Source: an uncultured Cytophagia bacterium (GTDB lineage: Bacteria > Zhuqueibacterota > Zhuqueibacteria > Thermofontimicrobiales > Thermofontimicrobiaceae). Taken from it: 64,000 bases of DNA. Under the pieces are notes generated by a model. The model was not told where the DNA came from, did no database searches, and saw nothing but the letters and a program-made list of their open reading frames with translations. Positions 16,889-61,135 of the stretch are shown here, in pieces; position 1 is the stretch's first letter; each line of letters starts with the position of its first letter. A program made the position numbers and the translations under genes. The stretch is taken from positions 22,783 through 86,782 of the forward strand of contig CAYYMH010000011.1 in the NCBI GenBank assembly GCA_964472785.1, written 5' to 3'.

Positions 16889-16914
16889 ATTGTTATCCGT
16901 GTGTTGTGAAATCC

Positions 16915-26043: not shown

Positions 26044-26059
26044 AATTTTATCATTTCCT

Positions 26060-34640: not shown

Positions 34641-34675
34641 TGTATTAGAAACAATTTAATCTTCCGTTAAAAATT

Positions 34676-34704: not shown

Positions 34705-34893
34705 TATGAGAAAGACAGCAAGCCAGAGTAGAATAATACACACGTCAAATTCCCTACTCAGTCTTAAATTGTTGCCGTCTTTTGAGTGCCCACTAAACAT
34801 ACTCAATACACAATAATTTTCGTTGAGTTTAAAACATTTCTTTGTGAAGCATAATCCACGAATCATAAATTATCAAGCATAAGGCGGGAATTT

Positions 34894-36120: not shown

Positions 36121-36132
36121 AACGAGTAAGCA

Positions 36133-39855: not shown

Positions 39856-42800
39856 ATGAATAGTAAAATTGACTCAAACAGGATATACCTTGACTTGTTT
39901 GTTCTGTTTGTGATCGCTTCGTTTATTTGCTTTCCTCTTTTTTCTCATGCGCAGGAGTTGGTTACAAAAGAAAAGGTTATTGAATTAGCTAATCGATTTA
40001 TTCAGGATGGACAAGCAGAAATACCCTCTCTGTCAACAGCTCAATTCGGAGAACCTGAGCTCATCAATGACGATGCTGATAATCCCATTAAGTGGCAGGT
40101 CAAAGTAATGACTCAAAATCGCTTGATGGGATATTTTTATGTCAAAGCAGAAACCATGGATGATGGTAACATACCCGTTTGGTTTTCAGGTCTTGGAGAT
40201 ACCGGTCAAAAACAGGAACAAATATCTCCAATTAAAAAAGAAAAAGGGATAGCAGGAGAACCCCATATCGAAGAAAATGACAACCATTTTATTGAGGAAG
40301 AAGAATCGAATTTTCCAAAAGGTCAAACGACACCCAGAATGGGTTATTCATCACTGGTTTTTGATCCCTCTAAATTTCAACGAATTATTCCTGCAGACGA
40401 TGAGAAGGAAATCATTGAACAAGAACCTCCGGAAGCGCCCGCTGCCTGGAACACGATTAAATATGAGAGTTTTGAAGGTTCTTTTCCCAATGATTGGGAT
40501 GTTTATGCGGCAACAGGATATGCCGACGCCTATTGGGACGATACGTCTTATAAAAAATACGCTGGCTCTTGGAGTGGGTTTTGCGCTGATCTTGGTTCAG
40601 ATTCCAATGGCTATGGCGGTCAATATGTCAATAATATGTATGCCTGGATGATCTATGGACCGTTCAGTCTGGCTGACGCTACGGATGCGGTGGTTCAATT
40701 TCGTCATTGGACGAAAACGGAGGCAACTTACGATAAACTCCATTATGTCGCATCAAAAAATGGTACGAACTATTATGGTTGGTACCTGACTGGCAACATG
40801 ACTGATGATACCGGAAACATAAATGGTTGGCTTTACAAGGAATTTGATCTGACCAATGTCTATACTATCGGAGACTTAACCGGTGAAAGCCAGGTATGGA
40901 TCGCATTTGTATTTACCAGTGATGCGGTAGTTGTTAATGACGGATCATATCTGGATGAAATTTATCTTAAAAAAGATGTTGGGGATACAGCGCCAACACT
41001 GGTTGACCACTTTACCTGTAGAGACGGCAATGATCCATACAACACAGCAACCACTACATTTAATACCACAGATAATATTGCAGCGGAATTCGTTAAATTT
41101 AACTCGAGCTCTTGTACTCGTGGTTATCCCCTTGGTATTGATTTCTACGATGATACAAATTCATATTATTGGGGAGCAACGACAACAATTCCAGCCGGAA
41201 ACAGCAATTATACCTGGTGGGCGGGAATTTATATCTCGGGTCAATATCCTGAGACTCATCCGGGTACTTATAACGCACGGGTAAAATTGGACGGTAGTCA
41301 GATTGCCAGGGATAATTTTACTATTGAAGGTTCAGATACAGAACCAACTTTAGTCGATCATTTTACCTGTCGCAACGGTGATGATCCATACAACACCCAA
41401 ACCACAACTTTTAATACTACAGACGCTATTGCAACAGAATTCGTGAAATTCAATTCGACCGCTTGCACAAGAGCCTGGACGGTCCGTATTGATTTTTTTG
41501 ATGATAATGACGATTTTTATTGGGGAGCAGAAATGAATTTGCCTGCAGGAAATAGTAGTTGGACATGGTGGGCTGGAATGTACATTTCCGGTTATTATCC
41601 TGCAACTCATCCAGGAGATTACTGTGTACGTGTTCATCTGGATGGGAATTGGTTATTCAGAGACGATTTTGAGATTGTACAACAAGGAGGGGAACCCGAC
41701 ATCCATGTTAATCCAACCCAAATCGATATCTATCAAACTCCGGCAAATTTGCAAAACTTTGATATCGATCCACTACCAGTACAGGAAGAACCATTTCGTG
41801 GAAAACATCCCACAGGTCTTATAATTCCGGAATATGTCAAAGATTACTGGAAAACACATTCACCTCAAATCGAATTTGATGTAAACACACTCAGTGCATC
41901 AGTCGACTGGAGCAGCAGCGACAGTCCGGTAAAAAATCAGGGGACTTGCGGTTCCTGCTGGGCGTTTGCTGCTGTCGGCTTGGTGGAAAATCGTGGTGGA
42001 TATTCTGATCTTTCAGAGCAAGTTCTTGTATCATGTGCTCCCGGAGACTGCAACGGCGGGTGGATGTGGGACGCCTTTGAATATATGAATACAGACGGCG
42101 TTCCGCCTGAAGTCTGCTATCCGTACACTGCGACCAATGGAAACTGTAACAACAAATGTACGAATCCCGATTATTTAGTAAAAGTAACAAACTACACGCC
42201 AGCATACGGTTTGTGGGGAGAACCTACTACGGTTAACACTTTGAAAGGTCAACTGCAAAGTGGACCTGTTGTTGTGGCAATGCGTGTTCCGGATGACAAC
42301 ACATTTAATGGCTGGCCTGGTTATACAGGAGGTATTTACAATTACAGCGGCGGAAATATTTCCGATGGTCCCAATCATGCGGTTTTGCTTGTTGGCTACA
42401 ATGATGATCAGCAATATTTTAAAGCAAAAAACAGTTGGGGGACAACATGGGGAGAAAGCGGATATTTTCGTATTGCTTATGATGATGTAACTGACGACAT
42501 CCAGTTTGGAAGCTATGGTTGTATTGCCTCTGGCATTTACACTGAAGGCGGCGGAGAATCCTTCACGATAAGCAATCAAGGAACGGCAACTTTAGTGATC
42601 AACAGCATCAGTGACAATAAATCCTGGTTGTCATTTACACCAACGACGATCCCGAATATTACACCGGGAGGCTCTCAAGTCGTTACTGTGAGTGTTACAG
42701 ATTGGAATGCAGTAAGCTCTCCTTCAGAGACCGGAACCATTACAATCAACTCAAATGATCCGGATGAAGCGAATGTTCAGGTACAGGTAACAGCTTATCC

Positions 42801-44499
42801 AGATGGCGGTGGTGACAATCCTATTCTGAATGTCAATAAAACCAGTATGACGTTTAGTGCTAATCAGGACGGTCCAAATCCTGCGCCGCAGACATTCAAT
42901 ATCACTAACGGCGGAACCGGGTCGTTCAACTGGACTGTCGCTGATAATAAGAGCTGGCTTTCAGAGAGTCCGACTAGTGGCAGCACAACCAACGAAACCG
43001 ATGTCGTGACTGTTTCCGTCAATGTCGCTGGATTAGGTCAGGGTACCTATAATGGAACCATAACAATTAGCGCTCCTGCTGCTCAGGGTAGCCCCAAAAC
43101 CATCAATGTGACACTAAATATTGGAGGCGGTGGACCGTGTAATCCACCTTATGTTAAAGCTCAAGACGGAAGCGGTGTCACCGGAACCGTGTTCACAGTG
43201 GATGTCGACATCAATCAAAATCCGACCGCAATTGATGCGTTTGGCTTTCAGTTTACCTATAATAGCAGTAAAATGTCATTACAGAGTGTGGCAAAAGGCG
43301 TATTGAGTAACCACTTCAGTTTCTTCCAGTATAATGAAAGTCCAGCAGGCACAGTTACGATCGGTGGATTCGATACAACACCCATTTCTGAAAATAGCAA
43401 TGGTACGATTGCAAGGGTAACGCTTCAAGTGACAAATTGTACAGAAGGAGAGACCTCAACATTAGGCATTCAAAACCTGACAGACGATTTAGCCGGGATG
43501 AATACCTGTAATGGAACATTTACCTGTGATCAACCTTGTCTGTTAGGTGATGTCAATATGGACGATGCAATCAGCCCGGGAGATGCCCTGTGCGCATTTC
43601 AGATTTATCTCAATGGAGGCACACCACCATCCGGTGAATGTGATACGGAATGTGCCTTGTATGCGGCAGATGTAAATTGCTCGCCAAATGGCGTAACTCC
43701 GGGTGATGCACTTTATATTTTCCAGGCCTATTTGAACGGTTTAACTCCACCATTGGATTGTGATCCGACATTAGCGATGGCGAACGAAAATAGCAACAAC
43801 GCCAAAATCAGTCTGGTAAAATTGCAAAGCCTCGCCGACAACGAACTCAAATTAGCCTTGCAGGTGGAACAGGTCAATGTACTGAAAGCATTTGGAATAG
43901 ATATTGGGTTCTCTGACGAAGTGTTGGCCCTGAAAGAAGTGCAATCCACGACACTGACAGAAACCTGGCAGGCACTTGATGGTCAGGAAAATATGGCAGG
44001 TGTCATTAGCATCGGTGGTTTTAATCATGAAGCGATTTCTTCAAACGGTTTTCTGGCAACTTTGACCTTTGAGGTAAAACAGTCTGACCTAAACAAAAAC
44101 ATCGAATTGTGGTTATCGAATGCCCAAGATGACTTGGCAGGAGTTCAAGCCACCGCCAATGTATTTCGCTTTAATCTGCTTTCAACAGATGTGTATCGAA
44201 TCGGTGACGGTTTGATCCCGGAAGATTACGTACTCGACCAGAATCATCCCAATCCGTTCAATATGGAAACGGAAATAACCTATCAGATACCCGAACCGAC
44301 CTATGTCAAACTTGATATTTACAATTCAAGGGGTCAAAAAGTGAAATCATTGGTTTCGGAGGATCAGCAAGCAGGGCGTTATGCAGTGCACTGGGACGGA
44401 AGAAATGAAAATGGTGAAACAATGACTTCCGGTGTTTATCTGTACCGAATTTCAACGTCGAAATTTGTTGATTCTAAAAAGTTGATACTCATTAAATAA
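39856..44499 (+). CDS. secreted multidomain papain-like (C1) cysteine peptidase with cohesin-like and dockerin-like modules and T9SS C-terminal sorting domain
   Basis: The signal peptide ends SHA|QE. A tandem ~117-aa repeat is present. The C1 active site is QGTCGSCWAFAA. Two Ig-like domains follow, then a cohesin-like domain (AIDAFGFQFTYNSS...). The dockerin-like pair is GDVNMDDAISPGDAL / ADVNCSPNGVTPGDAL. The C-terminus (...VYLYRISTSKFVDSKKLILIK) is a T9SS CTD. Confidence 0.8.
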   Translation: MNSKIDSNRIYLDLFVLFVIASFICFPLFSHAQELVTKEKVIELANRFIQDGQAEIPSLSTAQFGEPELINDDADNPIKWQVKVMTQNRLMGYFYVKAETMDDGNIPVWFSGLGDTGQKQEQISPIKKEKGIAGEPHIEENDNHFIEEEESNFPKGQTTPRMGYSSLVFDPSKFQRIIPADDEKEIIEQEPPEAPAAWNTIKYESFEGSFPNDWDVYAATGYADAYWDDTSYKKYAGSWSGFCADLGSDSNGYGGQYVNNMYAWMIYGPFSLADATDAVVQFRHWTKTEATYDKLHYVASKNGTNYYGWYLTGNMTDDTGNINGWLYKEFDLTNVYTIGDLTGESQVWIAFVFTSDAVVVNDGSYLDEIYLKKDVGDTAPTLVDHFTCRDGNDPYNTATTTFNTTDNIAAEFVKFNSSSCTRGYPLGIDFYDDTNSYYWGATTTIPAGNSNYTWWAGIYISGQYPETHPGTYNARVKLDGSQIARDNFTIEGSDTEPTLVDHFTCRNGDDPYNTQTTTFNTTDAIATEFVKFNSTACTRAWTVRIDFFDDNDDFYWGAEMNLPAGNSSWTWWAGMYISGYYPATHPGDYCVRVHLDGNWLFRDDFEIVQQGGEPDIHVNPTQIDIYQTPANLQNFDIDPLPVQEEPFRGKHPTGLIIPEYVKDYWKTHSPQIEFDVNTLSASVDWSSSDSPVKNQGTCGSCWAFAAVGLVENRGGYSDLSEQVLVSCAPGDCNGGWMWDAFEYMNTDGVPPEVCYPYTATNGNCNNKCTNPDYLVKVTNYTPAYGLWGEPTTVNTLKGQLQSGPVVVAMRVPDDNTFNGWPGYTGGIYNYSGGNISDGPNHAVLLVGYNDDQQYFKAKNSWGTTWGESGYFRIAYDDVTDDIQFGSYGCIASGIYTEGGGESFTISNQGTATLVINSISDNKSWLSFTPTTIPNITPGGSQVVTVSVTDWNAVSSPSETGTITINSNDPDEANVQVQVTAYPDGGGDNPILNVNKTSMTFSANQDGPNPAPQTFNITNGGTGSFNWTVADNKSWLSESPTSGSTTNETDVVTVSVNVAGLGQGTYNGTITISAPAAQGSPKTINVTLNIGGGGPCNPPYVKAQDGSGVTGTVFTVDVDINQNPTAIDAFGFQFTYNSSKMSLQSVAKGVLSNHFSFFQYNESPAGTVTIGGFDTTPISENSNGTIARVTLQVTNCTEGETSTLGIQNLTDDLAGMNTCNGTFTCDQPCLLGDVNMDDAISPGDALCAFQIYLNGGTPPSGECDTECALYAADVNCSPNGVTPGDALYIFQAYLNGLTPPLDCDPTLAMANENSNNAKISLVKLQSLADNELKLALQVEQVNVLKAFGIDIGFSDEVLALKEVQSTTLTETWQALDGQENMAGVISIGGFNHEAISSNGFLATLTFEVKQSDLNKNIELWLSNAQDDLAGVQATANVFRFNLLSTDVYRIGDGLIPEDYVLDQNHPNPFNMETEITYQIPEPTYVKLDIYNSRGQKVKSLVSEDQQAGRYAVHWDGRNENGETMTSGVYLYRISTSKFVDSKKLILIK

Positions 44500-44520
44500 T
44501 TTCTATCCAATTCTATATTT

Positions 44521-44567
44521 CATCCCGGGGACAATTGTCTAAGTTCCCGGGATGAATAATTTTGTTT
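44521..44567 (+). terminator. rho-independent terminator after the C1-peptidase gene
   Basis: The stem is catcccggg...cccgggatg (9 bp perfect). It is followed by aataattttgtttg. Confidence 0.5.
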
Positions 44568-44766
44568 GAGACTCTTTGAGACATACCACGCTCAAATTTG
44601 ATCACAATTTGTTGTTACTCACATTCAGATATTCATCAATACCATGACACTTTTATTGATACTGATTTATGAGGAGTTTTTTTCTACTCTTGAACAAACT
44701 TTTGGTATAAACGATCACGTTCACGTTTAAAATATTATAAAGAAATATTTCAGAGAAAGGGAACAG

Positions 44767-47700
44767 ATGTCGAGATTATGCGCCATAGTTAGTTTGTTGT
44801 TGATAATTTTTAATCCAGCCTTGATAGATTCACAAACCGCAAACAACCAAAACAGAAAAAATCTTGAACTATTAGCCGAAAGACATCAAAAAAAATCTCT
44901 TCAAAAAAAACAGGAAGCCATCAAATGGGCACAGGAAAAGGGAGCACCTGTGCGAACAGAGTTTAAGGACGGGACGATCATTGAAATTCAAGAAATTTTA
45001 AATGGTTATCCCCTATATTACATTACTGAAAATATAAATGCCGCCAAAACCGTTTCTACCGATGATGTCTGGCCCGGTGGCTCTGCCGGCTTGAATTTAA
45101 CTGGTTTGGGAATTACAATTGGTGAATGGGACGGTGGCGGAGTACGAACCTCTCATCAGGAGTTCAATGGCAGAGTCACTCAGATGGATTCTCCCAGTGG
45201 CACCAGCAGCCATTCGACTCATGTTGCCGGGACGATGATCGCGCGTGGGATGGATTCAGACGCAAAAGGTATGGCATATCAGGCAACTTTGGATGCCTAT
45301 GAGTGGAGTTCAGATGAATCAGAAATGGCAACTGCCGCAGCAAATGGTTTATTGTTCTCAAACCACTCTTACGGTTTTATTACCGGGTGGGAATACAACT
45401 ATTTTGGTGACGGTCGCTATGCCTGGTTTGGCGATATTTCAGTCAGCCAGGTGGAAGATCATAAATTTGGGTTTTATCTGGATCACGCGGCTGACTGGGA
45501 TGAGATTGCTTACAATGCACCATATTATCTTATCGTCAAATCAGCCGGCAATGACCGCAACGATACCGGACCGTCACCGGGAGGCACGCATTGGTACTAC
45601 AACGGTTCGACCTGGGCATTAAATAATACGACACGCGATCGGGACGGTGGAAATGATGGATATGACTGCATTCCCGGAGGATCCGCGATTTCCAAAAATG
45701 TTTTAACAGTCGGTGCTGTCGATGACATTCCAGGCGGTTATACCATGCCTTCGGACGTTGTGATGAGTTCGTTTAGCGGCTGGGGACCTGCTGATGACGG
45801 CCGGATAAAACCGGACATTGTCGCTAACGGGATATCTCTTTATTCCTGCGATGATGATTATGACTCAGATTACACATCGAAAAGCGGCACTTCAATGGCA
45901 GCACCGAATACAACAGGTTCGCTCGCTCTGCTGCAGGAACATTATAAAGAAACGCATAATGACAGTTTGATGTTAGCTGCAACGTTAAAAGCGCTGGTAA
46001 TTCACACAGCAGATGAAGCCGGTGCCTACGCCGGACCAGATTATGAGTTTGGCTGGGGATTGCTCAATACAACAACTGCTGCCGAGCTGATTACGCAGGA
46101 TACGACAGATGGTAATTTCATACGAGAAGTGGAATTACAAAATAATGGTCAATATTCATTGCAGGTGAACTCCAATGGTGTTGACCAGATTAAAGTCACC
46201 ATTGCCTGGACAGATCCGGCGGGTACACCACCTTCAGCTCAGCTAAATCCGCGAACACCGATGCTAGCGAACGATCTCGATTTAAGAATTACCAATGATA
46301 ACCAAACGCACTATCCCTGGAAATTGGATCCTGATGATCCTTCGCATTCCGCAATCAGGGCAGATAACACCGTTGATAATGTTGAACAAATTATCATTGA
46401 AGAACCAATTCAGGGCGGTTACACAATCGTGGTGAATCATAAAGAACAACTAACAAACAGCAGGCAACAATTTTCGATGATTTTGGAAGGTGTTACCTTT
46501 GGATCTGATTCATGCATAGCACCCTACATCGCCTGTCCAAATGTTGAGGGGAAACCGGGTCAGAATTTGATTATTGATATAGCGATCGAGGACAATCCGC
46601 TACCGATTGATGCATTTGGATTTGAATTCAATTATTGCAGTGACAAATTATCCCTGGTTTCGGTCGAGAAGTACGATTTAACCGATTCTTTTCAGTTTTT
46701 CCAGTTTCAGGAAAACACACCCGGGACAGTAACTATCGGCGGATTCAATACTGACCCGATATTGGCGAACCAGAGCGGAGCTATCGCACGAATTACATTA
46801 CAGGTCGATCAATGTACCGAAGGAGAAACGTGTGATCTGGAAATCTCAAATCTGACCGATGATGTAGCTGGATTAAATATCTGTGACGGATCATTTACTT
46901 GTGTGACATGTTTGTTGGGCGACGTCACAGATGATGGCGCTCTCACACCGGCAGATGCGCTCTGCGTCTTTCAGCGATATTTAGAGCCGTCCTATCAGTC
47001 GACGGATTGCCCTTGTTTGGATGATGCGTCTGACGCTAATTGTGATCAATTAATTACCCCCGGAGATGCGTTAATTATATTTACGGCATATTTGAATAAT
47101 ATCGATCCTCCTCTTTTTTGTCCTGTATTAAAAACGGAATACGATCAAAAAGAAAATTTTGGAAATGAAAAATTGTATCTCAAGCCAACAGGAAATAATC
47201 CCGAACAGGAAATGACATTTTCATTAATGATAGACAATCCTGCTGAATTAAGAGCGTTCGGGATTGATTTGGGCTTTCCGGACGATTTGCTGAGATTCGT
47301 CGATGTTAAACCAACTTCCGTTACAGAGTGTTGGCAGATATTAGAAGGAACAGAACCATTAGCTGGCGTCGTACGAATTGGCGGGTTTAATCAGGAAGCC
47401 ATTCAACAAAAAGGTTCCCTCTCATTGGCGACAATTACCTTTAGAGAAAAAAGAGGAGCGCAGGGCGAGGGTGAGCTCTGGCTTTTTAATGCATCGGACG
47501 ACTTGAGTGAAATAAAAAAGGAAAACTTACAATTCAGCTTGCAGACAACCGACGTGCGACAGATAACATTTGAAACGACTCCAAAAACGTATGGATTAGG
47601 ACAAAACTACCCCAATCCATTTAATATGGAAACAGATATTTTTTATCAATTACCCGAAGCAAGCGAAGTCAAGCTTACTATTTACAATTCCCGGGGACAA

Positions 47701-47862
47701 AAGATTCAGACATTAGTAGCAGAACAACAGAACGCAGGACATTATGTAGCTCATTGGGATGGAAGAGACGAATCCGGGCAGGAAGTCAGCTCCGGTGTTT
47801 ATGTTTATAAATTGATTGCTAATGATTTTACAGATTCCAAAAAGCTTATTTTGATGAAGTAA
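44767..47862 (+). CDS. secreted subtilisin-like (S8) serine peptidase with cohesin-like/dockerin-like modules and T9SS C-terminal sorting domain
   Basis: The signal peptide ends IDS|QT. The catalytic His region is SHSTHVAGT and the Ser region is SGTSMAAPNTTG. A cohesin-like module (PIDAFGFEFNYCSDKLSLVSV) and dockerin-like repeats (GDVTDDGALTPADAL / ANCDQLITPGDAL) follow. The C-terminus is a T9SS CTD (...VYVYKLIANDFTDSKKLILMK). Confidence 0.85.
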   Translation: MSRLCAIVSLLLIIFNPALIDSQTANNQNRKNLELLAERHQKKSLQKKQEAIKWAQEKGAPVRTEFKDGTIIEIQEILNGYPLYYITENINAAKTVSTDDVWPGGSAGLNLTGLGITIGEWDGGGVRTSHQEFNGRVTQMDSPSGTSSHSTHVAGTMIARGMDSDAKGMAYQATLDAYEWSSDESEMATAAANGLLFSNHSYGFITGWEYNYFGDGRYAWFGDISVSQVEDHKFGFYLDHAADWDEIAYNAPYYLIVKSAGNDRNDTGPSPGGTHWYYNGSTWALNNTTRDRDGGNDGYDCIPGGSAISKNVLTVGAVDDIPGGYTMPSDVVMSSFSGWGPADDGRIKPDIVANGISLYSCDDDYDSDYTSKSGTSMAAPNTTGSLALLQEHYKETHNDSLMLAATLKALVIHTADEAGAYAGPDYEFGWGLLNTTTAAELITQDTTDGNFIREVELQNNGQYSLQVNSNGVDQIKVTIAWTDPAGTPPSAQLNPRTPMLANDLDLRITNDNQTHYPWKLDPDDPSHSAIRADNTVDNVEQIIIEEPIQGGYTIVVNHKEQLTNSRQQFSMILEGVTFGSDSCIAPYIACPNVEGKPGQNLIIDIAIEDNPLPIDAFGFEFNYCSDKLSLVSVEKYDLTDSFQFFQFQENTPGTVTIGGFNTDPILANQSGAIARITLQVDQCTEGETCDLEISNLTDDVAGLNICDGSFTCVTCLLGDVTDDGALTPADALCVFQRYLEPSYQSTDCPCLDDASDANCDQLITPGDALIIFTAYLNNIDPPLFCPVLKTEYDQKENFGNEKLYLKPTGNNPEQEMTFSLMIDNPAELRAFGIDLGFPDDLLRFVDVKPTSVTECWQILEGTEPLAGVVRIGGFNQEAIQQKGSLSLATITFREKRGAQGEGELWLFNASDDLSEIKKENLQFSLQTTDVRQITFETTPKTYGLGQNYPNPFNMETDIFYQLPEASEVKLTIYNSRGQKIQTLVAEQQNAGHYVAHWDGRDESGQEVSSGVYVYKLIANDFTDSKKLILMK

Positions 47863-47955
47863 AAAGAAAGCCAGATTTAAAAGTATAGTACCAAGTTATT
47901 GGACTAATAATATCATAATTTAATTTTATTTGTTCACTAAAAAAAAGGATAGTAA

Positions 47956-50035
47956 TATGATAAGGAAAAATTACTTCAGTTCGGTCGTGTTACTGGTCTT
48001 AACTGTCTTTTTGACAAACGCACATTCAGCATGGGACGTGAGCCCTGCCGAGACCTCATATCAATACGGACCTGGAGAAAGTTTCACTGTTGAAGTTGAA
48101 TTAAGCGGTTCGGGAAGCGACATTGATGCACTTGGATTCGATTTTAATTACCCGAACAACTTGCTTACTTTTGATAATGTCGATTTTTCCGGTACACTTA
48201 TGGATGTCTGGAATTTTAAACAATCCAGTGAGTTATCCCCGGGCCTTCTTAAAATTGGAGGATTTACAACAACCGGAATTATTACAGGAGGCACACAAGG
48301 CACTATTGTTAAAATAAACTTCACGGTCAAGCAAAGCGCGACTGGTAGCGGTCAGTTCATGATAACCAACGTCACCGATGATTTAACCGGAGCTACTACA
48401 TCCGCAGCGACATTTAACACTGGTGGTGCACCAACTGATGGATGGGACATCTCCCCCGCTGAATCTCAGTACCAGTATTCACCAGGTCAGGCATTCACCG
48501 TCGATGTTGAATTAAGCGGAGATGGTGATGATATTGATGCGTTAGGATTTGATTTTAATTATCCGAACAGCCTGCTTACCTTTGACAATGTCGATTTTTC
48601 TGGTACGCTTATGGAACCATGGGATTTTAAACAATCCAGCGAACCATCTCCGGGTCTTCTTAAAATTGGAGGATTTACCACAACTGGAATCATTACCGGC
48701 CCAACCCAGGACACTTTAGTCAAAATAAATTTTACAGTGAAACAGGGGGCAAATGGCAACGGAATGTTTACAATCGATCAACTTACAGACGATGTATCGG
48801 ACGCGACAGCAGGATCAGCAACCTTTTCCACGAACACAGGAGGAGGTTACGACGTTTCTGGGACGATCCAGTATTTCCAGAATCAGAAGGCAGTCCCTTC
48901 AGCAGATGTCTCGCTGAACGGGAACTTTACAATTACGGATAATAGCGGTCAATTTTCGTTTTCTCAAATTCCCGGTGGAAATTACAGTCTGAAACCGGCC
49001 AAAACCGGTGATGTTGGAAACAGCGTTAGTCCCTTTGATGCTTCGATGGTGCTGCGTTTTGCTGTGGGCTTAATTTCTCTCACACCCTATCAACAAATTG
49101 CCGCCGATGTTTCCGGAAACGGGAGTATCTCACCGTTTGACGCGTCATATATTTTACGCTATTCTGTGGGATTAATTTCTTCATTTCCTGTCGGAGCTGA
49201 TTGGGGATTTGTGCCGAATTCCTTTGTCATTGATGAAAACAATTGGAATGAAGCCCCGGACTCAATCGACTACTCACCGTTAAACTCAAATCAAACCGGA
49301 CAGGATTTTACAGGAATTGTTTACGGCGATGTAACCGGAAACTGGTTGAATGCGTCCCTCACTGCATCAACAAATGGTGCTGAAGTCATAGTAAAGAATT
49401 TCGAAAATTTGCAAAACTCGCTTATCAAGTATCCGATAGAATTTCAGATTGATGAGGAAGCGTTTTCCGGTAGCTTTACTTTGAACTACAGCTCAAATGA
49501 CTACGAATTTGTGTCCTGCTCAAATCCGCCTACTGGCGGATTAATCGCTGCAGCTTCCAGTTCAGATGGTCAGGTTAAAATCGCTTTTGCATCGGAAAAC
49601 TCGTTATCAAATCAAAAGTTAACCTTCAACCTGCTGCTGAAAAAAATCAAATCAGGACAGACTCATTTACCAGACGTCGAATTAACCGATGTATTCATTG
49701 ACGATAAATCTGTCTTAACAACAGCCGTAAACCAATTTCAACAAAACGAATTACCAGCGGATTTTAATCTCCATCAAAATCACCCCAATCCATTTAATCC
49801 GGAAACAAACATCCGGTTTACCATTCCGAAATCATGTTTTGTAACGATGGCAGTCTATAACCAGTTAGGTCAGCGGGTCAAAACATTAGTGAATGGCATT
49901 AAATCGCCAGGAACGCACGAAGTAACCTGGAACGGATTGGATGAAAATGATCAGCCGGTGGTGAGTGGTGTGTACATTTATAAAATGAATACCAATAATT
50001 TTACGGCTTCAAAAAAGCTCATTCTGATAAGATAG
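47956..50035 (+). CDS. secreted protein with two tandem cohesin-like domains, dockerin-like repeats and T9SS C-terminal sorting domain (scaffold-like)
   Basis: The ATG at 47956 is preceded by aaggata. Two ~137-aa repeats are present (DIDALGFDFNYPNxLLTFDNVDFSGTLM...). The dockerin-like pairs are GDVGNSVSPFDASMVLRF / ADVSGNGSISPFDASYILRY. The T9SS CTD is ...VYIYKMNTNNFTASKKLILIR. Confidence 0.65.
48032..48850 (+). repeat. tandem direct repeat (2 x ~411 bp, ~85% identical) encoding the two cohesin-like domains
   Basis: 48032-48442 is nearly repeated at 48443-48850. The antisense ORFs 48148..48330 and 48559..48759 are mirror images of each other. Confidence 0.7.
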
Positions 50036-52199: not shown

Positions 52200-52979
52200 T
52201 TATTCTAAAACATAACGAAATGTGATCACGCCCCGTTGTATATTCTGTGGTTCACTTTCAGAAAGCGGATTAAAACGCCATTGCCGCAATGCATCCAGCG
52301 TGAGTTTCTCCAGCTGCGGGTCTGATCTTATCACCGGAATCATCTCCCCAACCTGCCCGTTCGGTAAAACCGAGAAGCCGATTTTAACTACGGCTTGTTT
52401 TTGTAAATTTTCCGGATATTCCGGGATGACTTTATGTACCACCGCTCGTTCTGCCACCTTGCCTTCAATTTGGTAAGGCATATTTTCTCCACCCGCGTTG
52501 ATTTTACCCGCAGAACTCGCAGGCATAATTTTATCTTCCGGCGTCAGCTTCCGTCCCGCAGAGGCAATGAGTTTATCTTCTTTTTTTGAGGCACTGAATA
52601 ATGGTGCGTCGATCATCGTTTTGTTAGCAGATTGTTCGTGTCTGTTTATTTTCTCTTTATCCTCGACGGAGATTTTCTGGTTGTCATCCGGAACCCGCAA
52701 TTCCGGCGCTTCATCCTCCAGCATTTTTCGTAAAGGAAGTTTAACAACATCTGGTGTCGCTTGAACGCCGTCATTGACATCGGACAGCTCTTCGCTTTTC
52801 GAAAGCGGTGAATCCGGACGCAACGAAGAACCTCTTTCTGTTACAAATGCCACTTCCGTAAATTCAGAAGTCCTGAAGTGCCATTTGACTTTTAATAACA
52901 GAAAAAGAGCAATCAAAAGGGCATGAAAAAATATTGAGAGAATAAGCGCCCACTGTTTTTCTCGACTGTTTAAAACCAC
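52200..52979 (-). CDS. tonB: energy transducer TonB
   Basis: It has an N-terminal TM anchor and a Pro/Glu/Lys-rich linker. The C-terminal TonB domain is PEYPENLQKQAVVKIGFSVLPNGQV. It lies downstream of exbB-exbD. Confidence 0.7.
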   Translation of the reverse strand: MVLNSREKQWALILSIFFHALLIALFLLLKVKWHFRTSEFTEVAFVTERGSSLRPDSPLSKSEELSDVNDGVQATPDVVKLPLRKMLEDEAPELRVPDDNQKISVEDKEKINRHEQSANKTMIDAPLFSASKKEDKLIASAGRKLTPEDKIMPASSAGKINAGGENMPYQIEGKVAERAVVHKVIPEYPENLQKQAVVKIGFSVLPNGQVGEMIPVIRSDPQLEKLTLDALRQWRFNPLSESEPQNIQRGVITFRYVLE

Positions 52980-52981
52980 GG

Positions 52982-53401
52982 CTACAAATCACTCCCTGGT
53001 TGAGTTGCAATTAAAAATTTCTCTGCTCCGGCAATTTTGGCAATGTCCACAATTTCAACGGTTTTTTCCAGTGTCAAATCCTTATCTGCTTGAATAACCA
53101 CCAGCTTTTGAGAGTGCTGATCCAAAAGCTGTTTTAACTTGCCTCCCAGCTCACTTTTCAAAATGCGTTGATTATTCAAATAGATCATATCTGTTTTCGT
53201 GATCGTTAAATAAATTCGGTCTTTGGTGTCAACTTCTCCCGTAATCGCTTTAGGCAAACTCACTTTGATACCGGGTTGGACAAAAAATGATGAAGATAAC
53301 AGAAAAAATATCAGCAGTAACAATACAATATCGGTCAAAGAAATTGTTGAAAAGGTGACTATTTTTTTTCGATTCATTTTAAAATTCATCTTTTTTCTCA
53401 C
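52982..53401 (-). CDS. exbD: biopolymer transport protein ExbD/TolR
   Basis: About 139 aa with a single N-terminal TM segment. The region DVLLLLLIFFLLSSSF is ExbD-like. Confidence 0.8.
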   Translation of the reverse strand: MRKKMNFKMNRKKIVTFSTISLTDIVLLLLIFFLLSSSFFVQPGIKVSLPKAITGEVDTKDRIYLTITKTDMIYLNNQRILKSELGGKLKQLLDQHSQKLVVIQADKDLTLEKTVEIVDIAKIAGAEKFLIATQPGSDL

Positions 53402-54011
53402 CTCTCTCGATCAACATATCCAAAATGGTTGTCGAATGATCCTCCATTTCAAAAACAAGATATTCAACCTTGCCCTGAAGCCAGTTATAAAAAATGAGCG
53501 TAATAATACCAACGGCAAGACCGGCAGCAGTCGTAACCAGCGCTTCCCAAATTCCACCGGCTAAAACACTGGCATCCACATTCCCCCCGAGATTTTGAAC
53601 CTGAATAAACGCCCGGATCATCCCGGTTACCGTTCCTAAAAAACCCAAGAGTGGCGCAATAGCAGCAATGGTGCCCAGTATGCCCAGATTGCTTTCCAAT
53701 CGAAATATTTCCGCCTTTCCGGCGTTTTCAATCGCTTCTTTTATTTCTTCGCGTGAACGGTTATATCTTTCAACCGCTGCCTTGGTGATTTTCGCGACGG
53801 GTGCAGACGTCTTTTTTGCAAGCATTATCGCATCAGTGATTTTCTCCTTCATAATCAAAGATTTGATATGAAGAATGAAGCTGCGGGCATTAATTCGCAT
53901 TTTTCTCAAATATAGCCAGCGCTCGATAATAATCGCCATTGCAATAATAGAGCACAGAAAGATCGGTATCATCAAGATGCCACCTTTAACAAGAATCATC
54001 AAAAAATTCAT
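53379..54011 (-). CDS. exbB: MotA/TolQ/ExbB proton channel protein
   Basis: 210 aa with 3 TM helices. The C-terminal signature region is GFLGTVTGMIRAF. Confidence 0.8.
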   Translation of the reverse strand: MNFLMILVKGGILMIPIFLCSIIAMAIIIERWLYLRKMRINARSFILHIKSLIMKEKITDAIMLAKKTSAPVAKITKAAVERYNRSREEIKEAIENAGKAEIFRLESNLGILGTIAAIAPLLGFLGTVTGMIRAFIQVQNLGGNVDASVLAGGIWEALVTTAAGLAVGIITLIFYNWLQGKVEYLVFEMEDHSTTILDMLIERGEKKDEF

Positions 54012-54068
54012 TCTACCTCCTCTAAAGATAATTTCCTTTTCATTCGCTTTTAATCATTCAATTTTCAT

Positions 54069-55037
54069 TTAATCATAAAGCAAACCGATCAAGACTTTGC
54101 CAACATTCCCCAGACTCTGCGCACTGCATTTGTCCGGTGTATCTTCGATTGTATGCCAGTAGGGATAATCAAAATCAATGATATTAATGCAACGAATCCC
54201 CACTTGCAGCAGATTCAAATGATCATCATAAACATCATGCTTGACTTGGGGGATGAATTCGTGAATGCCCAATGCTTGTGCTTTATTCCACACTAAATCC
54301 ACGATGTCTCTGGCGTACTGATAAGAATTTTGTTCAATATAAAGCTGTTGATCCGCGTCGCCGATCAAATCCAATAAAATGCCGAATTCCGGCCGATAGC
54401 GTTTTGTTACTGTCTGAGCAAATTTCTCCGAGCCTTTTGCCCAGGTATGGTTTTGTCCGTAAGAACCAAAATCCTCTGCATCAAACAGAACAATATCCAC
54501 GCCATATTTCGGCCGCTTCAAGTGAAGCAGACGGGCTATTTCCAGCAAAACAGCAACTCCGGAAGCACCGTCATTCGCGCCCAACACCGGTTTTGAATGG
54601 TTCTGCGGATCTGGGTCCTGATCTGCCCAGGGGCGCGTATCCCAATGAGCGCAAAGTAAAATTCGTCGGGTATTGTCCGAATGAAAATTCGCGATAATAT
54701 TAAAACACTTCACTGGCTTTTCTTCGGGTCTGATGCGAATTCGAAACGGCTGTTCAGTGACTTTGTCAGCATATTGCTGCAACGTTTGAACGAGGTAGTT
54801 TTTGCAATTTACATGAGCGTCAGTGCCGGGAACACGAGGGCCGAAGTCACATTGTTTCTCTAAATACAGAAATGCATTATCCTGATCAAACTTAGGTGTA
54901 ACCTGACTGTTACACGAGGAAATAGATGCAACAAAAAAAATAATTATCAATTTTGTCTGAAATTTTATTCTCATGATAATATCCAATAAATAATTCCGAT
55001 ATTTCCGTACTAAATAAAACGAGTTAAGTATTTTCAC
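54069..55037 (-). CDS. M28-family metallopeptidase-fold lipoprotein, glutaminyl-peptide cyclotransferase-like
   Basis: The lipoprotein signal is ASISSCNS. The M28 zinc-site region is LLCAHWDTRPWADQD...VLFDAEDFG. It is adjacent to the SprA-like gene. Confidence 0.5.
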   Translation of the reverse strand: MKILNSFYLVRKYRNYLLDIIMRIKFQTKLIIIFFVASISSCNSQVTPKFDQDNAFLYLEKQCDFGPRVPGTDAHVNCKNYLVQTLQQYADKVTEQPFRIRIRPEEKPVKCFNIIANFHSDNTRRILLCAHWDTRPWADQDPDPQNHSKPVLGANDGASGVAVLLEIARLLHLKRPKYGVDIVLFDAEDFGSYGQNHTWAKGSEKFAQTVTKRYRPEFGILLDLIGDADQQLYIEQNSYQYARDIVDLVWNKAQALGIHEFIPQVKHDVYDDHLNLLQVGIRCINIIDFDYPYWHTIEDTPDKCSAQSLGNVGKVLIGLLYD

Positions 55038-61000: not shown

Positions 61001-61135
61001 AAGACGCAGACCAATATATGGATTGTCAGATGCCATAACTTTTCCCGAGATAAAAAACGTTGGGAAAATTATGATAAAAAACAATGATATGTAATAGGAA
61101 TGGAATTTCAAACCGGTTTTCGCTCTAAAGCTCAT
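55040..61135 (-). CDS. sprA: giant outer-membrane protein, SprA/Sov-like T9SS translocon candidate
   Basis: 2031 aa with a signal peptide. It shows long stretches of alternating Gly/Asn/Ser/Tyr/Phe-rich beta-strand-like sequence. T9SS cargo genes and T9SS CTDs occur in the same window. The assignment is by size and context and was not checked against a motif. Confidence 0.45.
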   Translation of the reverse strand: MSFRAKTGLKFHSYYISLFFIIIFPTFFISGKVMASDNPYIGLRLSTEQTYGIPLFGKELARGLSMLDFTQPSVKKTPRTIKRDVDIDSTGSEVTVEEQAFDVYLHQPATYSLSDYTRYCLDKNLDVIWQNYKVKDISGERIERKRGKGIEIAIPVKIRSRAFQTIFGGDQVSLSVTGQINIRGGFRHEKRSQVKTAINRGSDYNFKMEQTQRFRVQGNIGDKVTVSVDQDSERPFDFENTVKLDYKGYDDEIIQSIQAGNISLSLPATRFVSFSGKNSGLFGIKAEAQVGNFHLTTIASQEKGENKKLTISGGAEEGEYKIQDYNYMKGVYFFVDHTYRDNYTELDESGTHYFYEDKIITDFEIYKSAPGYEQKEGRIYGWALENPDVENPDTTQIDQENTYGYWIRLDRSEYFLETSLGYIKLRNAVSDNEMLAIAYRDSSGKVVGDTEFNPFEEDVIILRMLKPRSPRPSDSTWDLMFRHVYYLGARDIDPDGFEAKIFFDTPSGDDEETINTDEGVKSYLSLFGLDKVNQSGETQPDNIIDNISNILRLGQGELEFPSLRPFADESYLPKEKIVSAMYDTTNQSYIANESKFYILVKSKNRSATYDLGWNVIEGSEEVILNGSKLIKDKDYIIDYYSGKLTILREEATSPSANVEVNYQRNELFQLEKKTLLGMRGEYRFWENSFIGGTFLYLNQSTLDQKVRVGKGPMRNMIWDVNTSFDFKPNFLTKAIDAFPLIETKEESNLKFEGEIAQILPNPNTLNNTKTDDPDGVAYIDDFEAAKKITPLGVIKSGWRASSCPLGIGEIPDPTNNWQRTFYHYKRRGRLIWYNPYNQVAIREIWPNRDTHNPNTPQVVHVLTLEFSPADRPDDPEYEPTQSWGGIQRWLSTGYSDQSDSKFLEVWVDGDAGRLHIDLGRISEDIIPNGKLDDEDRPVNGIKNELLDPGEDVGLDGMAGADPEDYWDINKNGQRDDGEPISYDDWYYTTGGYDYSRINGTEGNENDPGGRLPDSEDFNGNGSLDVQNDYFEYTFSLSKSHKDTMYIAGGQDNEYGWRLYRIPLSEFTKRVGEPDMSRIEYVRVWIDSCYADTYLRIAEINLVGNDWKEMGVAPDDFSSYNTKNDSTVIAAVTNTHDNDDYSPPPGVSGVKDRITRVEAKEQSLVIRVNELEAGANGILRKTFYQAENYIHYDRMKMFIHGGDAYGRNFSKDVSSVELFLRFGSDNNNYYEYRSPIFEGWEGNNMDIALNDLATLKLQPPDTLTGLRVDSLGNGKYYIIKGEPSLTNVRQLVLGIKNISNPDAMEDYIDKNGLPFSGEIWINELRLSGVKKDKGVALRARAQLKVADVFTINGEINKKDADFHNVNQRFGSGNNEIGGSISGNFSLHKFLPNSWGIAIPINFNYSERTSTPKYLPGSDILVTKDTPDSVLEKIGNENINQGLGVSFRKNTRSNNFFVKNTIDNISISFNTAQSHSKSSTQKYADRETYTANISYNLSFPKDKYFQPFKWIGKAPIISKLAQLKFFYFPTNLNLKASGNRSNSKSETRSGVVTENETFLISRSIQTGIQPFQSMSFDFSRDYKNDLRDTAEPLEEITNFRFGQLTDMSQSISAKFNPQLFRWLKTNFSYSAKFKFSNNLQLKDRGRNASNNNSITTSLTFDPDQFVKSLFKKSSGTRVKRRRPPAKKPPDKSDQDKKEDQGSGFNPLSILGSGVDFITSRIKPINLNLTQRKNISNYGLDPAGGMPSFNYMVGFDKNPGMESVEGVGTNDGSFRDNRSISLQSGLNIIKQMDVSLKYSHDEDENETTTRTGGSSDSWFYIEETGGFPIAEWTVRWSGLEKISFFKKFTQRISFDHNFSGKKQESWQNNPNQKTKTSYTKSFRPLAGFNISLKKNINMNVRYNYSENISFTQRGGSGGQKSVQSDLSFSASYSHSGGMRIPLPFLKNKELKNNMDFQLTISMNNNQSFQKLQEKDWVETDMRKSWSLEPQLNYSFSRNVRGGVHFKMGKNSNKRIGDTTIQELGINVNISISGS

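What the first reader, a model, noticed from the sequence alone, without database searches (positions are those of the whole stretch)
39856..50035. Three consecutive T9SS cargo proteins that all combine cohesin-like and dockerin-like modules: possible surface protease complex
A 1547-aa papain-family C1 peptidase, a 1031-aa subtilisin S8 peptidase and a 701-aa non-catalytic protein with two tandem cohesin-like domains lie head to tail.
- Each carries a cohesin-like beta-sandwich (the DIDALGFDFNYP / AIDAFGFQFTYN blocks parallel cohesin ANCDFVYSYDP).
- Each carries paired dockerin-like repeats (GDVNMDDAISPGDAL, GDVTDDGALTPADAL, ADVSGNGSISPFDAS).
- Each ends in a T9SS C-terminal sorting domain (...KKLILIK/MK/IR).
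Each protein could therefore both bind and be bound. That suggests a T9SS-anchored, cellulosome-like assembly built around proteases rather than glycoside hydrolases.
Basis: partly seen in the sequence, partly recalled or inferred. Interest (0 to 1): 0.6.

Follow-up and report, generated by a model that had tools for sequence, protein, structure and literature searches.

The report
Secreted proteases carrying cohesin–dockerin assembly modules
Three neighbouring genes of an uncultured KSB1 bacterium encode two secreted proteases and a non-catalytic partner that all carry genuine cohesin and dockerin "plug-and-socket" modules ahead of a type IX secretion tag, so a surface enzyme complex is plausible but binding is untested.

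Summary
P1 (C1A cysteine peptidase), P2 (S8 subtilase) and P3 (non-catalytic) lie head to tail. Each ends in a T9SS type A sorting domain, and an SprA translocon gene lies 5 kb away.

I count seven cohesins and three dockerins of two types. All three proteins end in dockerin–cohesin–CTD.
- **Enzyme class:** (CohA)–Cys-rich Doc–CohB–CTD.
- **Scaffold class:** 1–4 tandem cohesins–Doc–CohC–CTD.

Scaffold-class genes follow enzyme-class peptidase genes in 4 of 4 loci examined (KSB1/Calditrichota-like bins).

The Cys-rich Doc–Coh cassette is widespread: 350 representative clusters reach E ≤ 1e-30. It sits mostly on non-protease cargo, so it is a general T9SS-cargo cassette, not a protease-specific one.

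Whether the modules bind between molecules (a cellulosome-like complex) or form a rigid intramolecular stalk could not be tested.

A CTD-anchored cohesin–dockerin complex with peptidases was already proposed in silico for Cloacimonadota (PMC8542988). I rate this a new variant of a known kind, of moderate interest.

The parts
39856..44499 (+). P1: 1547-aa T9SS cargo protein. Signal peptide, unknown N-terminal region (aa 195-640, including two ~115-aa repeats), cathepsin-L-like C1A peptidase (aa 680-876), Ig-like and BACON_2 domains (aa 902-1076), then CohA-Doc-CohB-CTD.
43138..43536 (+). P1 CohA (aa 1095-1227), cohesin module
43537..43773 (+). P1 Cys-rich dockerin (aa 1228-1306), 6 Cys. Repeats: DVNMDDAISPGDAL and DVNCSPNGVTPGDAL.
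43795..44196 (+). P1 CohB (aa 1314-1447), second cohesin
   Evidence: Pfam 21.1 bits, below GA. BLAST to CohA at E = 1e-12. Beta-sandwich with pLDDT ~90. Local HMM 135 bits.
44248..44496 (+). P1 T9SS type A C-terminal sorting domain (aa 1465-1547)
   Evidence: TIGR04183 34.6 bits against cutoff 23. FlgD_ig 5e-12.
44767..47862 (+). P2: 1031-aa T9SS cargo protein. Signal peptide, KP-43-like S8 subtilase with C-terminal beta domain (aa ~100-575), then CohA-Doc-CohB-CTD.
46510..46908 (+). P2 CohA (aa 582-714)
   Evidence: Pfam Cohesin 35.7 bits. 55% identical to P1 CohA.
46909..47136 (+). P2 Cys-rich dockerin (aa 715-790). Both loops have the canonical 12 residues: DVTDDGALTPAD and DANCDQLITPGD.
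   Evidence: Pfam Dockerin_1 20.1 bits, below GA. 53% identical to the P1 dockerin. Loop positions.
47161..47559 (+). P2 CohB (aa 799-931)
   Evidence: No Pfam hit. BLAST 42% to P1 CohB, and E = 7e-15 to P2 CohA. Local HMM 149 bits.
47608..47859 (+). P2 T9SS type A sorting domain (aa 948-1031)
   Evidence: TIGR04183 44.1 bits
47930..50035 (+). P3: non-catalytic scaffold-class protein. 701 aa from the TTG; the database protein starts at the ATG at 47957 and is 692 aa. Architecture: Coh1-Coh2-CarboxypepD_reg-Doc-X-CohC-CTD.
48026..48835 (+). P3 Coh1 (aa 33-166) and Coh2 (aa 167-302), tandem cohesins 75% identical to each other
   Evidence: Pfam Cohesin 38.8 bits. BLAST. Local HMM 168 and 154 bits.
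49007..49204 (+). P3 dockerin (aa 360-425), no Cys. The first Ca-loop is shortened by 2 residues. The second is canonical: DVSGNGSISPFD.
   Evidence: Pfam 22.3 bits against GA 22.9. Profile A4 hits the ScaB dockerin 4uyp_B at 2.4e-13. Three-helix model; the top 19 Foldseek hits are all dockerins, though weak.
49205..49342 (+). P3 region X (aa 426-471). Highly conserved extension after the dockerin, ending in a third GDVTGNW half-loop. Fold unresolved.
   Evidence: Invariant columns in A1, A8 and A9. AF2 pLDDT <50.
49343..49771 (+). P3 CohC (aa 472-614), divergent third cohesin
   Evidence: Profile A5 hits archaeal cohesin 2xdh at 5.4e-5. hhalign against the local cohesin family: 90.6% probability, E = 1.3e-6.
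49784..50032 (+). P3 T9SS type A sorting domain (aa 619-701)
   Evidence: TIGR04183 38.7 bits
50324..51871 (+). AbgT-family transporter immediately downstream. Possible uptake partner; the link is inferred from position only.
   Evidence: PF03806 4e-193
52200..55037 (-). TonB, ExbD, ExbB and M28 peptidase genes. Context only; a possible peptide trimming and uptake role is inferred.
55040..61135 (-). SprA/Sov-like T9SS translocon gene, 70-74% identical to candidate division KSB1 SprA
   Evidence: PF14349 1.2e-41. Homologues named SprA.

Best explanation
The three genes encode type IX secretion cargo of a candidate-division KSB1 bacterium: a cathepsin-L-like cysteine peptidase, a KP-43-like subtilase and a non-catalytic protein.

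**Shown**
- Each protein carries genuine non-cellulosomal cohesin and dockerin modules.
- Each ends in dockerin-cohesin-CTD.
- Two classes exist. The enzyme class is cargo-(CohA)-Cys-rich Doc-CohB-CTD. The scaffold class is 1-4 tandem cohesins-Doc-X-CohC-CTD.
- The two classes are syntenic across genomes.

**Inferred**
- After Sec export and T9SS translocation through SprA, the CTD is removed and the proteins stay on or near the outer membrane.
- Cohesin-dockerin pairing then joins them into a hetero-oligomeric surface assembly.
- The most likely wiring is that the two near-identical N-terminal cohesins of P3 each take the Cys-rich dockerin of one peptidase. The P3 dockerin and the CohA, CohB and CohC modules would provide further links or anchoring.
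- Peptides released by the endopeptidases would be trimmed and imported by neighbouring functions (M28 peptidase, TonB/ExbBD, AbgT transporter).

The cassette itself is generic and is used for many kinds of cargo in these lineages.
For: - T9SS: TIGR04183 in all three proteins. SprA in the window.
- Active enzymes: catalytic motifs intact.
- Scaffold-like features: P3 has tandem cohesins 75% identical. Orthologues carry 1 to 4 such cohesins. The representative set also holds proteins with 3-5 tandem cohesins.
- Synteny: the scaffold-class gene lies directly downstream of Cys-dockerin peptidase genes in 4 of 4 loci: window, L001, L082, L083.
- Position-specific cohesin types are conserved across genomes: the best cross-genome match keeps the type in 25 of 26 cohesins. 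This suggests distinct specificities.
- The dockerin helices are the most conserved part of the module, as expected for a binding surface.
- The count of Cys-dockerin proteins equals the count of scaffold N-terminal cohesins in the window (2 and 2) and in L001 (3 and 3). This is weak evidence.
Against: - No binding was predicted or measured.
- All 127 Cys-rich dockerins in the representative set are fused directly to a following cohesin (median gap 8 aa), and CohA abuts the dockerin (median gap -2).
- pLDDT stays at 74-96 across both junctions and pTM is 0.66 for three domains. This fits a rigid intramolecular unit whose dockerin may already be occupied.
- Each protein has its own CTD and could be anchored independently, so a scaffold is not needed for surface retention.
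- Pfam Dockerin_1 is below its gathering score in all three.
- The first Ca-loop of the P3 dockerin is shortened.
- The promoter/terminator scan gives no evidence for or against an operon.
- Other Cys-dockerin proteins elsewhere in the genome were not counted.
Confidence: 0.45

Rival explanations
1. Rigid stalk. The Coh-Doc(Cys)-Coh unit is a self-contained, disulfide-stapled superdomain in which the dockerin packs against its own flanking cohesins. It acts as a spacer or stalk that holds T9SS cargo away from the outer membrane and LPS layer, or stabilises it. There is no intermolecular cohesin-dockerin assembly.
For: - 127 of 127 Cys-rich dockerins are followed by a cohesin, with a median 8-aa gap. 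The CohA-Doc gap has a median of -2.
- pLDDT is high through both junctions and pTM is 0.66.
- The dockerin has six invariant Cys, and CohA has further Cys.
- The cassette occurs on very diverse cargo, as a generic structural appendage would.
- Every protein has its own CTD anchor.
Against: - It does not explain the non-catalytic scaffold class with variable numbers (1-4) of near-identical tandem cohesins, nor its strict synteny with enzyme-class genes.
- It does not explain why the putative recognition helices of the dockerin are so strongly conserved and duplicated symmetrically.
- It does not explain the four cohesin types conserved across genomes.
Confidence: 0.3
2. Head-to-tail polymer. 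The dockerin of one molecule binds the cohesin (CohB or CohC) of the next. Cargo proteins would then form daisy-chain fibrils or a two-dimensional surface layer rather than a discrete scaffold-plus-enzymes complex.
For: - Every component carries both module kinds in a fixed Doc-Coh order next to the anchor.
- From my own knowledge of Peer et al. 2009 and work on Archaeoglobus fulgidus: proteins carrying both a cohesin and a dockerin are known outside cellulosomes. The best structural match of these cohesins is the A. fulgidus cohesin 2xdh.
Against: - No direct evidence.
- An 8-residue Doc-CohB linker favours either cis packing or no self-binding, and does not argue for trans binding specifically.
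- It does not need or explain the separate scaffold class.
Confidence: 0.12
3. Other ligands. The cohesin-like sandwiches and dockerin-like Ca2+ modules bind something other than each other, for example substrate proteins, polysaccharide, LPS or other cell-surface components. They would then act as adhesion or substrate-targeting domains.
For: - Much of the cargo attached to the cassette is adhesin-like: FG-GAP, Kelch, CARDB, PKD.
- From my own knowledge: dockerin-like repeats occur widely without known cohesin partners.
Against: Strict co-occurrence of both module kinds in the same proteins and loci is most simply explained by their binding each other. Fold and profile matches are specifically to cohesin-dockerin pairs.
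Confidence: 0.1

Closest known systems
Putative CTD-anchored cellulosome-like complex of Cloacimonadota 'Ca. Stygibacter' (Williams et al. 2021, PMC8542988)
   Same: Uncultured FCB-group bacterium. Signal-peptide enzymes carry dockerins, including an S8/S53 serine peptidase and a cysteine peptidase. There is a non-catalytic cohesin-repeat protein with a T9SS-type C-terminal domain. A surface complex degrading polypeptides was proposed. Evidence there is also in silico only.
   Different: In that system the enzymes carry C-terminal dockerins only, and one giant (3755-aa) scaffoldin carries the cohesins plus CBM2/CBM3. Here every component carries both module kinds in a fixed Coh-Doc-Coh-CTD or Coh(n)-Doc-Coh-CTD order. 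Every component has its own CTD. The enzyme dockerin is a Cys-rich variant. No CBM and no glycoside hydrolase is present. The lineage is KSB1/Calditrichota.
Non-cellulosomal cohesin and dockerin modules (Peer et al. 2009, cited in PMC8542988; Archaeoglobus fulgidus cohesin, PDB 2xdh)
   Different: Those are scattered single modules. Here they form a conserved multi-gene system coupled to T9SS sorting domains, with four position-specific cohesin types and two dockerin types.
Classical cellulosomes of Clostridia, including adaptor scaffoldins such as Acetivibrio cellulolyticus ScaB
   Same: Tandem near-identical cohesins on a non-catalytic protein. Dockerins with two Ca-loop/helix repeats. Proteins that carry both cohesins and a dockerin. 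The P3 dockerin profile hits the ScaB dockerin at E = 2.4e-13.
   Different: Gram-positive, anchored by SLH or sortase, built around glycoside hydrolases and CBMs, with the dockerin at a protein terminus on a flexible linker. Here the organism is diderm, export is by T9SS, the locus encodes peptidases, there is no CBM or GH, and the dockerin is wedged between two cohesins with almost no linker.
Gingipain surface complexes of Porphyromonas gingivalis (my own knowledge)
   Same: T9SS-exported cysteine proteases with C-terminal sorting domains that end up as multi-domain, non-covalent protease-adhesin complexes on the outer membrane.
   Different: Gingipains are C25 peptidases that assemble through haemagglutinin/adhesin (Cleaved_Adhesin) domains, not cohesin-dockerin modules. 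There is no sequence relationship to the modules here.

Membership tests
Cohesin (Pfam PF00963) | Sequence match to the family model above the curated threshold | tested here: met
   P1 CohA 34.9 bits, P2 CohA 35.7 bits, P3 Coh1 38.8 bits against GA 24.1 on isolated segments. The whole-protein scan missed them. P1 CohB scores 21.1 bits and P3 CohC 14.1 bits (both below GA), and P2 CohB has no hit. These are linked by BLAST at 1e-9 to 1e-17, hhalign at 90.6% and profile against PDB at 5e-5.
Cohesin (Pfam PF00963) | Nine-stranded flattened beta-sandwich (jelly-roll) fold | tested here: met
Cohesin (Pfam PF00963) | Binds a cognate dockerin | not testable with these tools
   No complex prediction and no model coordinates were available.
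Dockerin type I (Pfam PF00404) | Sequence match to the family model above the curated threshold | tested here: not met
   16.0 bits (P1), 20.1 bits (P2) and 22.3 bits (P3) against GA 22.9. All three are near misses.
Dockerin type I (Pfam PF00404) | Homology to experimentally defined dockerins at profile level | tested here: met
   The P3-type profile A4 hits 4uyp_B at 2.4e-13, the double-dockerin 8x39 at 2e-8 and DocCel5 at 1e-5. For the Cys-rich profile A3, seven of the top nine hits are dockerins, best 5m2s_B at 2e-4.
Dockerin type I (Pfam PF00404) | Duplicated Ca2+-loop plus helix segments (12-residue D-x-[DN]-x-[DN]...D loop) forming a three-helix fold | tested here: met
T9SS type A cargo (TIGR04183 / Por_Secre_tail) | C-terminal sorting domain matching the curated model, at the extreme C-terminus, plus an N-terminal signal peptide | tested here: met
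   TIGR04183 scores 34.6, 44.1 and 38.7 bits against cutoff 23, ending 3 residues from the C-terminus. Hydrophobic N-terminal leaders were read from the sequence; no signal-peptide predictor was run.
T9SS type A cargo (TIGR04183 / Por_Secre_tail) | T9SS machinery encoded in the genome | tested here: met
   An SprA/Sov homologue lies at 55040-61135 (PF14349 1.2e-41) and is 70-74% identical to proteins named SprA in KSB1. PorU, PorV, PorK-N and other components lie outside the window and were not examined.
Cellulosome | Dockerin-bearing glycoside hydrolases and a carbohydrate-binding module on the scaffoldin | tested here: not met
   No GH or CBM domain in P1-P3 or anywhere in the cluster. The cargo here is two peptidases.
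Cellulosome | Non-catalytic scaffoldin with tandem cohesins that recruit enzyme-borne dockerins | tested here: inconclusive
   P3 and its orthologues have 1-4 tandem cohesins and are syntenic with dockerin-bearing enzymes. Recruitment was not tested.
Peptidase C1A (papain family) | Catalytic Cys-His-Asn with the Gln oxyanion residue | tested here: met
   PF00112 1.5e-44. The motifs NQGTCGSCWAF, NHAVLLVGY and KNSWG align with cathepsin-L-like structures at 1e-29.
Peptidase S8 (subtilase) | Asp-His-Ser triad in subtilisin order | tested here: met
   PF00082 1e-31. The motifs GEWDGGG, HSTHVAG and SGTSMAAP are present. The closest structure is the KP-43 protease 1wmd at 1.8e-21, including its C-terminal beta domain.

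The most novel reading that the evidence does not exclude
The (Coh)-Doc(Cys)-Coh-CTD and Coh(n)-Doc-X-Coh-CTD cassettes form a general, T9SS-coupled self-assembly code in KSB1, Calditrichota and related uncultured FCB phyla. Hundreds of different cargo proteins (enzymes and adhesins) would plug into each other and into small scaffold proteins through four cohesin types and two dockerin types. The result would be a modular enzyme and adhesin layer on the outer membrane: a diderm counterpart of the cellulosome principle, not restricted to carbohydrate degradation.
Probability: 0.3. Interest if true: 0.75.

Novelty: new variant of a known kind. Interest (0 to 1): 0.52.

Why it matters
Cohesin-dockerin pairing is the best-understood natural system for building extracellular enzyme complexes. 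So far it has been demonstrated almost only in Gram-positive cellulose degraders.

If the modules here do pair, the same principle is used by diderm bacteria together with the type IX secretion system, for protein degradation and for many other surface functions. The lineages concerned (KSB1, Calditrichota) are abundant in sediments and are thought to recycle detrital protein.

The family is large: 350 clusters at 50% identity reach E ≤ 1e-30. It is compact, and its disulfide-rich dockerin is wedged between two cohesins. It would therefore offer a new set of orthogonal binding pairs for synthetic biology, and a concrete, testable model for how T9SS cargo is organised on the cell surface.

There is also a practical annotation point. 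Whole-protein Pfam scans missed the cohesins that isolated segments detect clearly, so such systems are probably under-annotated.

Tried and rejected
- The whole-protein Pfam scan listed no cohesin. This was a filter artefact, since isolated segments score well.
- phmmer of the single P1 module against PDB found nothing useful. Profiles were needed.
- The one genome-contig scan was dominated by the generic CTD motif QNYPNPFN. It returned T9SS cargo from many FCB phyla but no source genome and little locus information.
- The exact-sequence look-up of P3 found no contig on record, and the cluster look-up gave no names.
- The word-indexed search with the module found only 22 hits and suggested a rare family. 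The exhaustive HMM search corrected this to thousands.
- The AF2 model of the P3 dockerin plus region X was low-confidence (pLDDT 56). Region X stays unresolved, and the Foldseek matches, though all dockerins, have E ≥ 8e-3.
- The AFDB fold library was unavailable. I could not test whether homologues' models share the same interdomain geometry.
- Model coordinates and PAE are not exposed, so intramolecular dockerin-cohesin contacts could not be measured. I did not attempt a fused-chain complex prediction, because only pLDDT and pTM would have been returned.
- The promoter/terminator scan was no better than shuffles.
- There are no Rfam hits in the window and no convincing small ORFs in the 1-kb spacer upstream of P1.
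- The P1 N-terminal region (aa 195-640) has no Pfam or PDB sequence match.
- A literature search for PDB code 8X39 was uninformative. The entry was identified from the fold search instead.
- I considered and rejected the idea that the large proteins upstream in L001 and L083 are P1 orthologues. They lack a C1 domain.

Full report
**1. What is at the coordinates**

Three same-strand ORFs lie at 39856-44499 (P1, 1547 aa), 44767-47862 (P2, 1031 aa) and 47930-50035 (P3). P3 is 701 aa from a TTG. The public protein for P3 starts at the ATG at 47957 and is 692 aa. The intergenic gaps are 267 and 67 nt. A 1-kb AT-rich, gene-free spacer precedes P1. The promoter/terminator scan found no more sites than in shuffled sequence, so an operon is plausible but not shown.

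**2. Catalytic domains and secretion signals**

- P1 holds a papain-family domain (PF00112, E = 1.5e-44). Its closest solved relatives are cathepsin-L-like enzymes (E = 1e-29). The motifs QGTCGSCWAF, NHAVLLVGY and KNSWG are intact.
- P2 holds a subtilase domain (PF00082, E = 1e-31). It has the D/H/S motifs and a KP-43-type C-terminal beta domain (1wmd, E = 1.8e-21).
- All three proteins end in a T9SS type A sorting domain above NCBIfam's cutoff (TIGR04183: 34.6, 44.1 and 38.7 bits against 23).
- All three begin with hydrophobic leader peptides (read from the sequence).
- A 2031-aa SprA/Sov translocon homologue lies 5 kb downstream on the other strand (PF14349, E = 1.2e-41). It is 70-74% identical to proteins named SprA in candidate division KSB1 / Zhuqueibacterota. 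This names the lineage of the window.

**3. Are the cohesin-like and dockerin-like segments real?**

Yes.

*Cohesins*
- The whole-protein Pfam scan listed no cohesin.
- The same model scores 34.9, 35.7 and 38.8 bits (gathering score 24.1) on the isolated segments P1 1095-1227, P2 582-714 and P3 33-166.
- An AlphaFold2 model of P1 residues 1090-1452, built on 16 homologues, has mean pLDDT 89.8.

*Dockerins*
- Pfam Dockerin_1 is a near miss in all three proteins (16.0, 20.1 and 22.3 bits against 22.9).
- A profile of the P3-type dockerin hits solved dockerins strongly: the ScaB dockerin 4uyp_B at E = 2.4e-13 and the C. thermocellum double dockerin 8x39 at E = 2e-8.
- A profile of the P1/P2-type dockerin hits mostly dockerins: seven of its top nine matches, best E = 2e-4.
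- The Ca-loop residues are canonical in both P2 repeats. P1 repeat 2 has a one-residue insertion. The first loop of the P3 dockerin is two residues short.

It is not met.

**4. The anatomy is richer than reported**

Segment-against-segment BLAST, profile-profile comparison and profile-against-PDB searches show seven cohesins and three dockerins.

| Protein | Architecture |
|---|---|
| P1 | cargo-CohA-Doc-CohB-CTD |
| P2 | cargo-CohA-Doc-CohB-CTD |
| P3 | Coh1-Coh2-CarboxypepD_reg-Doc-X-CohC-CTD |

- All three therefore end in dockerin-cohesin-CTD.
- The P1 and P2 dockerins are 53% identical and carry six conserved cysteines.
- The P3 dockerin has no cysteine and is only marginally similar to the other two.
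- P3 Coh1 and Coh2 are 75% identical.
- Region X (aa 426-471) is among the most conserved stretches of the P3 family and ends in a third GDVTGNW half-loop. Its fold could not be modelled.

**5. Relatives and synteny**

P3 homologues come from Calditrichota, KSB1 and Cloacimonadota bins. I built local HMMs of the four module groups and ran them over all ORFs of the window and of six related loci.

Two classes emerge:
- **Enzyme class:** cargo-(CohA)-Cys-rich Doc-CohB-CTD. The cargo is C1 and S8 peptidases here, and M14 carboxypeptidase, S8 and large non-peptidase proteins in relatives.
- **Scaffold class:** 1-4 tandem cohesins-Doc-X-CohC-CTD.

Further findings:
- In all four loci that encode a close P3 orthologue (window, L001, L082, L083), the scaffold-class gene or genes lie directly downstream of enzyme-class peptidase genes.
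- More distant proteins that share only the Doc-X-CohC tail are not so placed (L084-L086).
- For 25 of the 26 cohesins, the best cross-genome match is a cohesin in the same position. CohA, CohB, the scaffold N-terminal cohesins and CohC are therefore conserved types.
- In the 64-kb window, only P1-P3 carry these modules.

**6. How common is the cassette, and is it protease-specific?**

An exhaustive HMM search with a Doc(Cys)+CohB profile, with no CTD columns, against 1.84 billion representatives found 4349 proteins at E ≤ 1e-3 and 350 at E ≤ 1e-30.

Among the top 136 representatives:
- The commonest architectures are Coh-Doc-Coh-CTD (48) and Doc-Coh-CTD (30).
- Some proteins consist of 3-5 tandem cohesins.
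- The N-terminal region before the first module has a median length of 548 aa.

All 127 Cys-rich dockerins are followed directly by a cohesin (median gap 8 aa). CohA abuts the dockerin (median gap -2).

A Pfam census of 46 cassette proteins found CARDB, reelin-type, Ig-like, FG-GAP, BACON, Kelch and PKD domains. Peptidase domains appeared in only three of them. By BLAST, only 5 of the 136 match the C1, S8 or M14 domains of these loci.

The cassette is therefore a general appendage of T9SS cargo in these lineages. The protease theme belongs to this locus and its syntenic relatives.

**7. Mechanism**

*Shown:* real cohesins and dockerins, T9SS sorting domains, apparently active peptidases, two conserved classes, synteny.

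*Inferred:* the proteins are exported by Sec and the T9SS and retained on the surface after CTD processing. Cohesin-dockerin pairing then links them.

The most economical wiring is that the two near-identical N-terminal cohesins of P3 take the Cys-rich dockerins of P1 and P2. Three observations support this. Copy number varies among orthologues. Synteny is strict. The counts match in the window (2 enzymes, 2 cohesins) and in L001 (3 and 3). The count match is weak, because the rest of each genome was not surveyed.

Downstream genes for an AbgT transporter, TonB/ExbB/ExbD and an M28 peptidase fit a role in peptide trimming and uptake. That link rests on position only.

The main rival is that Coh-Doc-Coh is a rigid, disulfide-stapled stalk whose dockerin is occupied in cis. 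In its favour are the invariant fusion, the near-absent linkers, high pLDDT through both junctions and a pTM of 0.66.

**8. Comparison with what is known**

- Non-cellulosomal cohesins and dockerins, including on peptidases and in proteins bearing both, have been catalogued (Peer et al. 2009, cited in PMC8542988; my own knowledge, since the paper is not held).
- Williams et al. 2021 proposed, from sequence alone, a CTD-anchored cellulosome-like complex in Cloacimonadota. It has dockerin-bearing S8 and C25 peptidases, GH18 and GH57 enzymes, and a giant cohesin/CBM scaffoldin.
- In the held library, no paper contains both Calditrichaeota and either module name, and the KSB1 genomics paper contains neither term. 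That paper also makes no mention of peptidases or secretion systems.

Differences here:
- Every component carries both module kinds in a fixed order and has its own CTD.
- The enzyme dockerin is Cys-rich and wedged between two cohesins.
- There are four position-specific cohesin types.
- There are no CBMs or glycoside hydrolases.
- Small scaffold paralogues replace one giant scaffoldin.

The system fails the cellulosome membership test on GH and CBM content. It may still work like a cellulosome.

**9. Verdict**

Module identity and T9SS cargo status are supported. Complex formation is untested. The claim that the assembly is built around proteases holds only at locus level.
- Novelty: a new variant of a known, so far purely in-silico, kind.
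- Interest: moderate (0.52). The family is large and unstudied, and it makes T9SS-coupled cohesin-dockerin assembly directly testable. The concept has precedent, and no interaction evidence exists.

Noticed in passing
window 14504-19343 (- strand): A diversity-generating retroelement. The reverse transcriptase is at 15205-16350. The target gene at 17115-19343 has a C-terminal FGE-sulfatase/C-type-lectin-like domain. A 144-nt template repeat at 14504-14647 matches a variable repeat at 17093-17236, the 3' end of the target gene, at 84% identity. In the 122-nt coding part, 14 of 18 mismatches fall on template adenines (Fisher p = 9e-6). The template reads ...WNNNANNTRCANRNNNNPNNSNNNIGFRCVR*. The 250-aa ORF at 16340-17092 between target and RT was not examined.
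   Followed up: partly
window 14682-17015: Short hairpin-like repeats surround the DGR reverse transcriptase. A 42-nt unit (TGCAATGCATAAAGGCATTGCA core) occurs four times, at 15161, 16299, 16896 and 16974. A 43-nt unit occurs twice, at 14682 and 16937. Their function is unknown.
   Followed up: no
window 24565-38843: A possible light-response gene group: two phytoene-desaturase-like amine-oxidase genes (24565-26043 and 26277-27758, - strand), a MerR-type regulator with B12-binding domains that looks CarH-like (31176-32060), a 4Fe-4S protein (36133-37311) and a photolyase-related DPRP protein (37308-38843). A CrtC hydratase lies further away at 8471-9634.
   Followed up: no
window 4459-6314 (- strand): A HaeIII-type restriction endonuclease (PF09556, E = 9e-101) lies next to a D12-class N6-adenine methyltransferase, inside a low-GC patch (GC 0.34 against about 0.42). 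The pairing is unusual, because from my own knowledge HaeIII-type systems normally use a C5-cytosine methylase.
   Followed up: no
window 39856-41775 (P1 aa 1-640): The long N-terminal part of P1 has no Pfam or PDB sequence match. It contains two ~115-aa Cys-containing repeats (aa 381-495 and 496-610, starting TLVDHFTCR[DN]G[ND]DPYNT). A preceding ~180-aa region recurs in three other cassette proteins, P0147, P0117 and P0121.
   Followed up: partly
window 39856-50035: An annotation blind spot. hmmscan of the full-length proteins reports no Cohesin domain at E ≤ 1, while the same model scores 35-39 bits on the excised segments. Precomputed Pfam calls on homologues are similarly patchy.
   Followed up: partly
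window 38844-39855: A 1-kb gene-free, AT-rich (GC 0.34) spacer lies upstream of P1, with many promoter-like hexamers. It has no Rfam match and no convincing ORF.
   Followed up: partly
window 29226-30677: A fusion of an NmrA-like/NAD(P)-binding domain with DUF2867, 483 aa.
   Followed up: no
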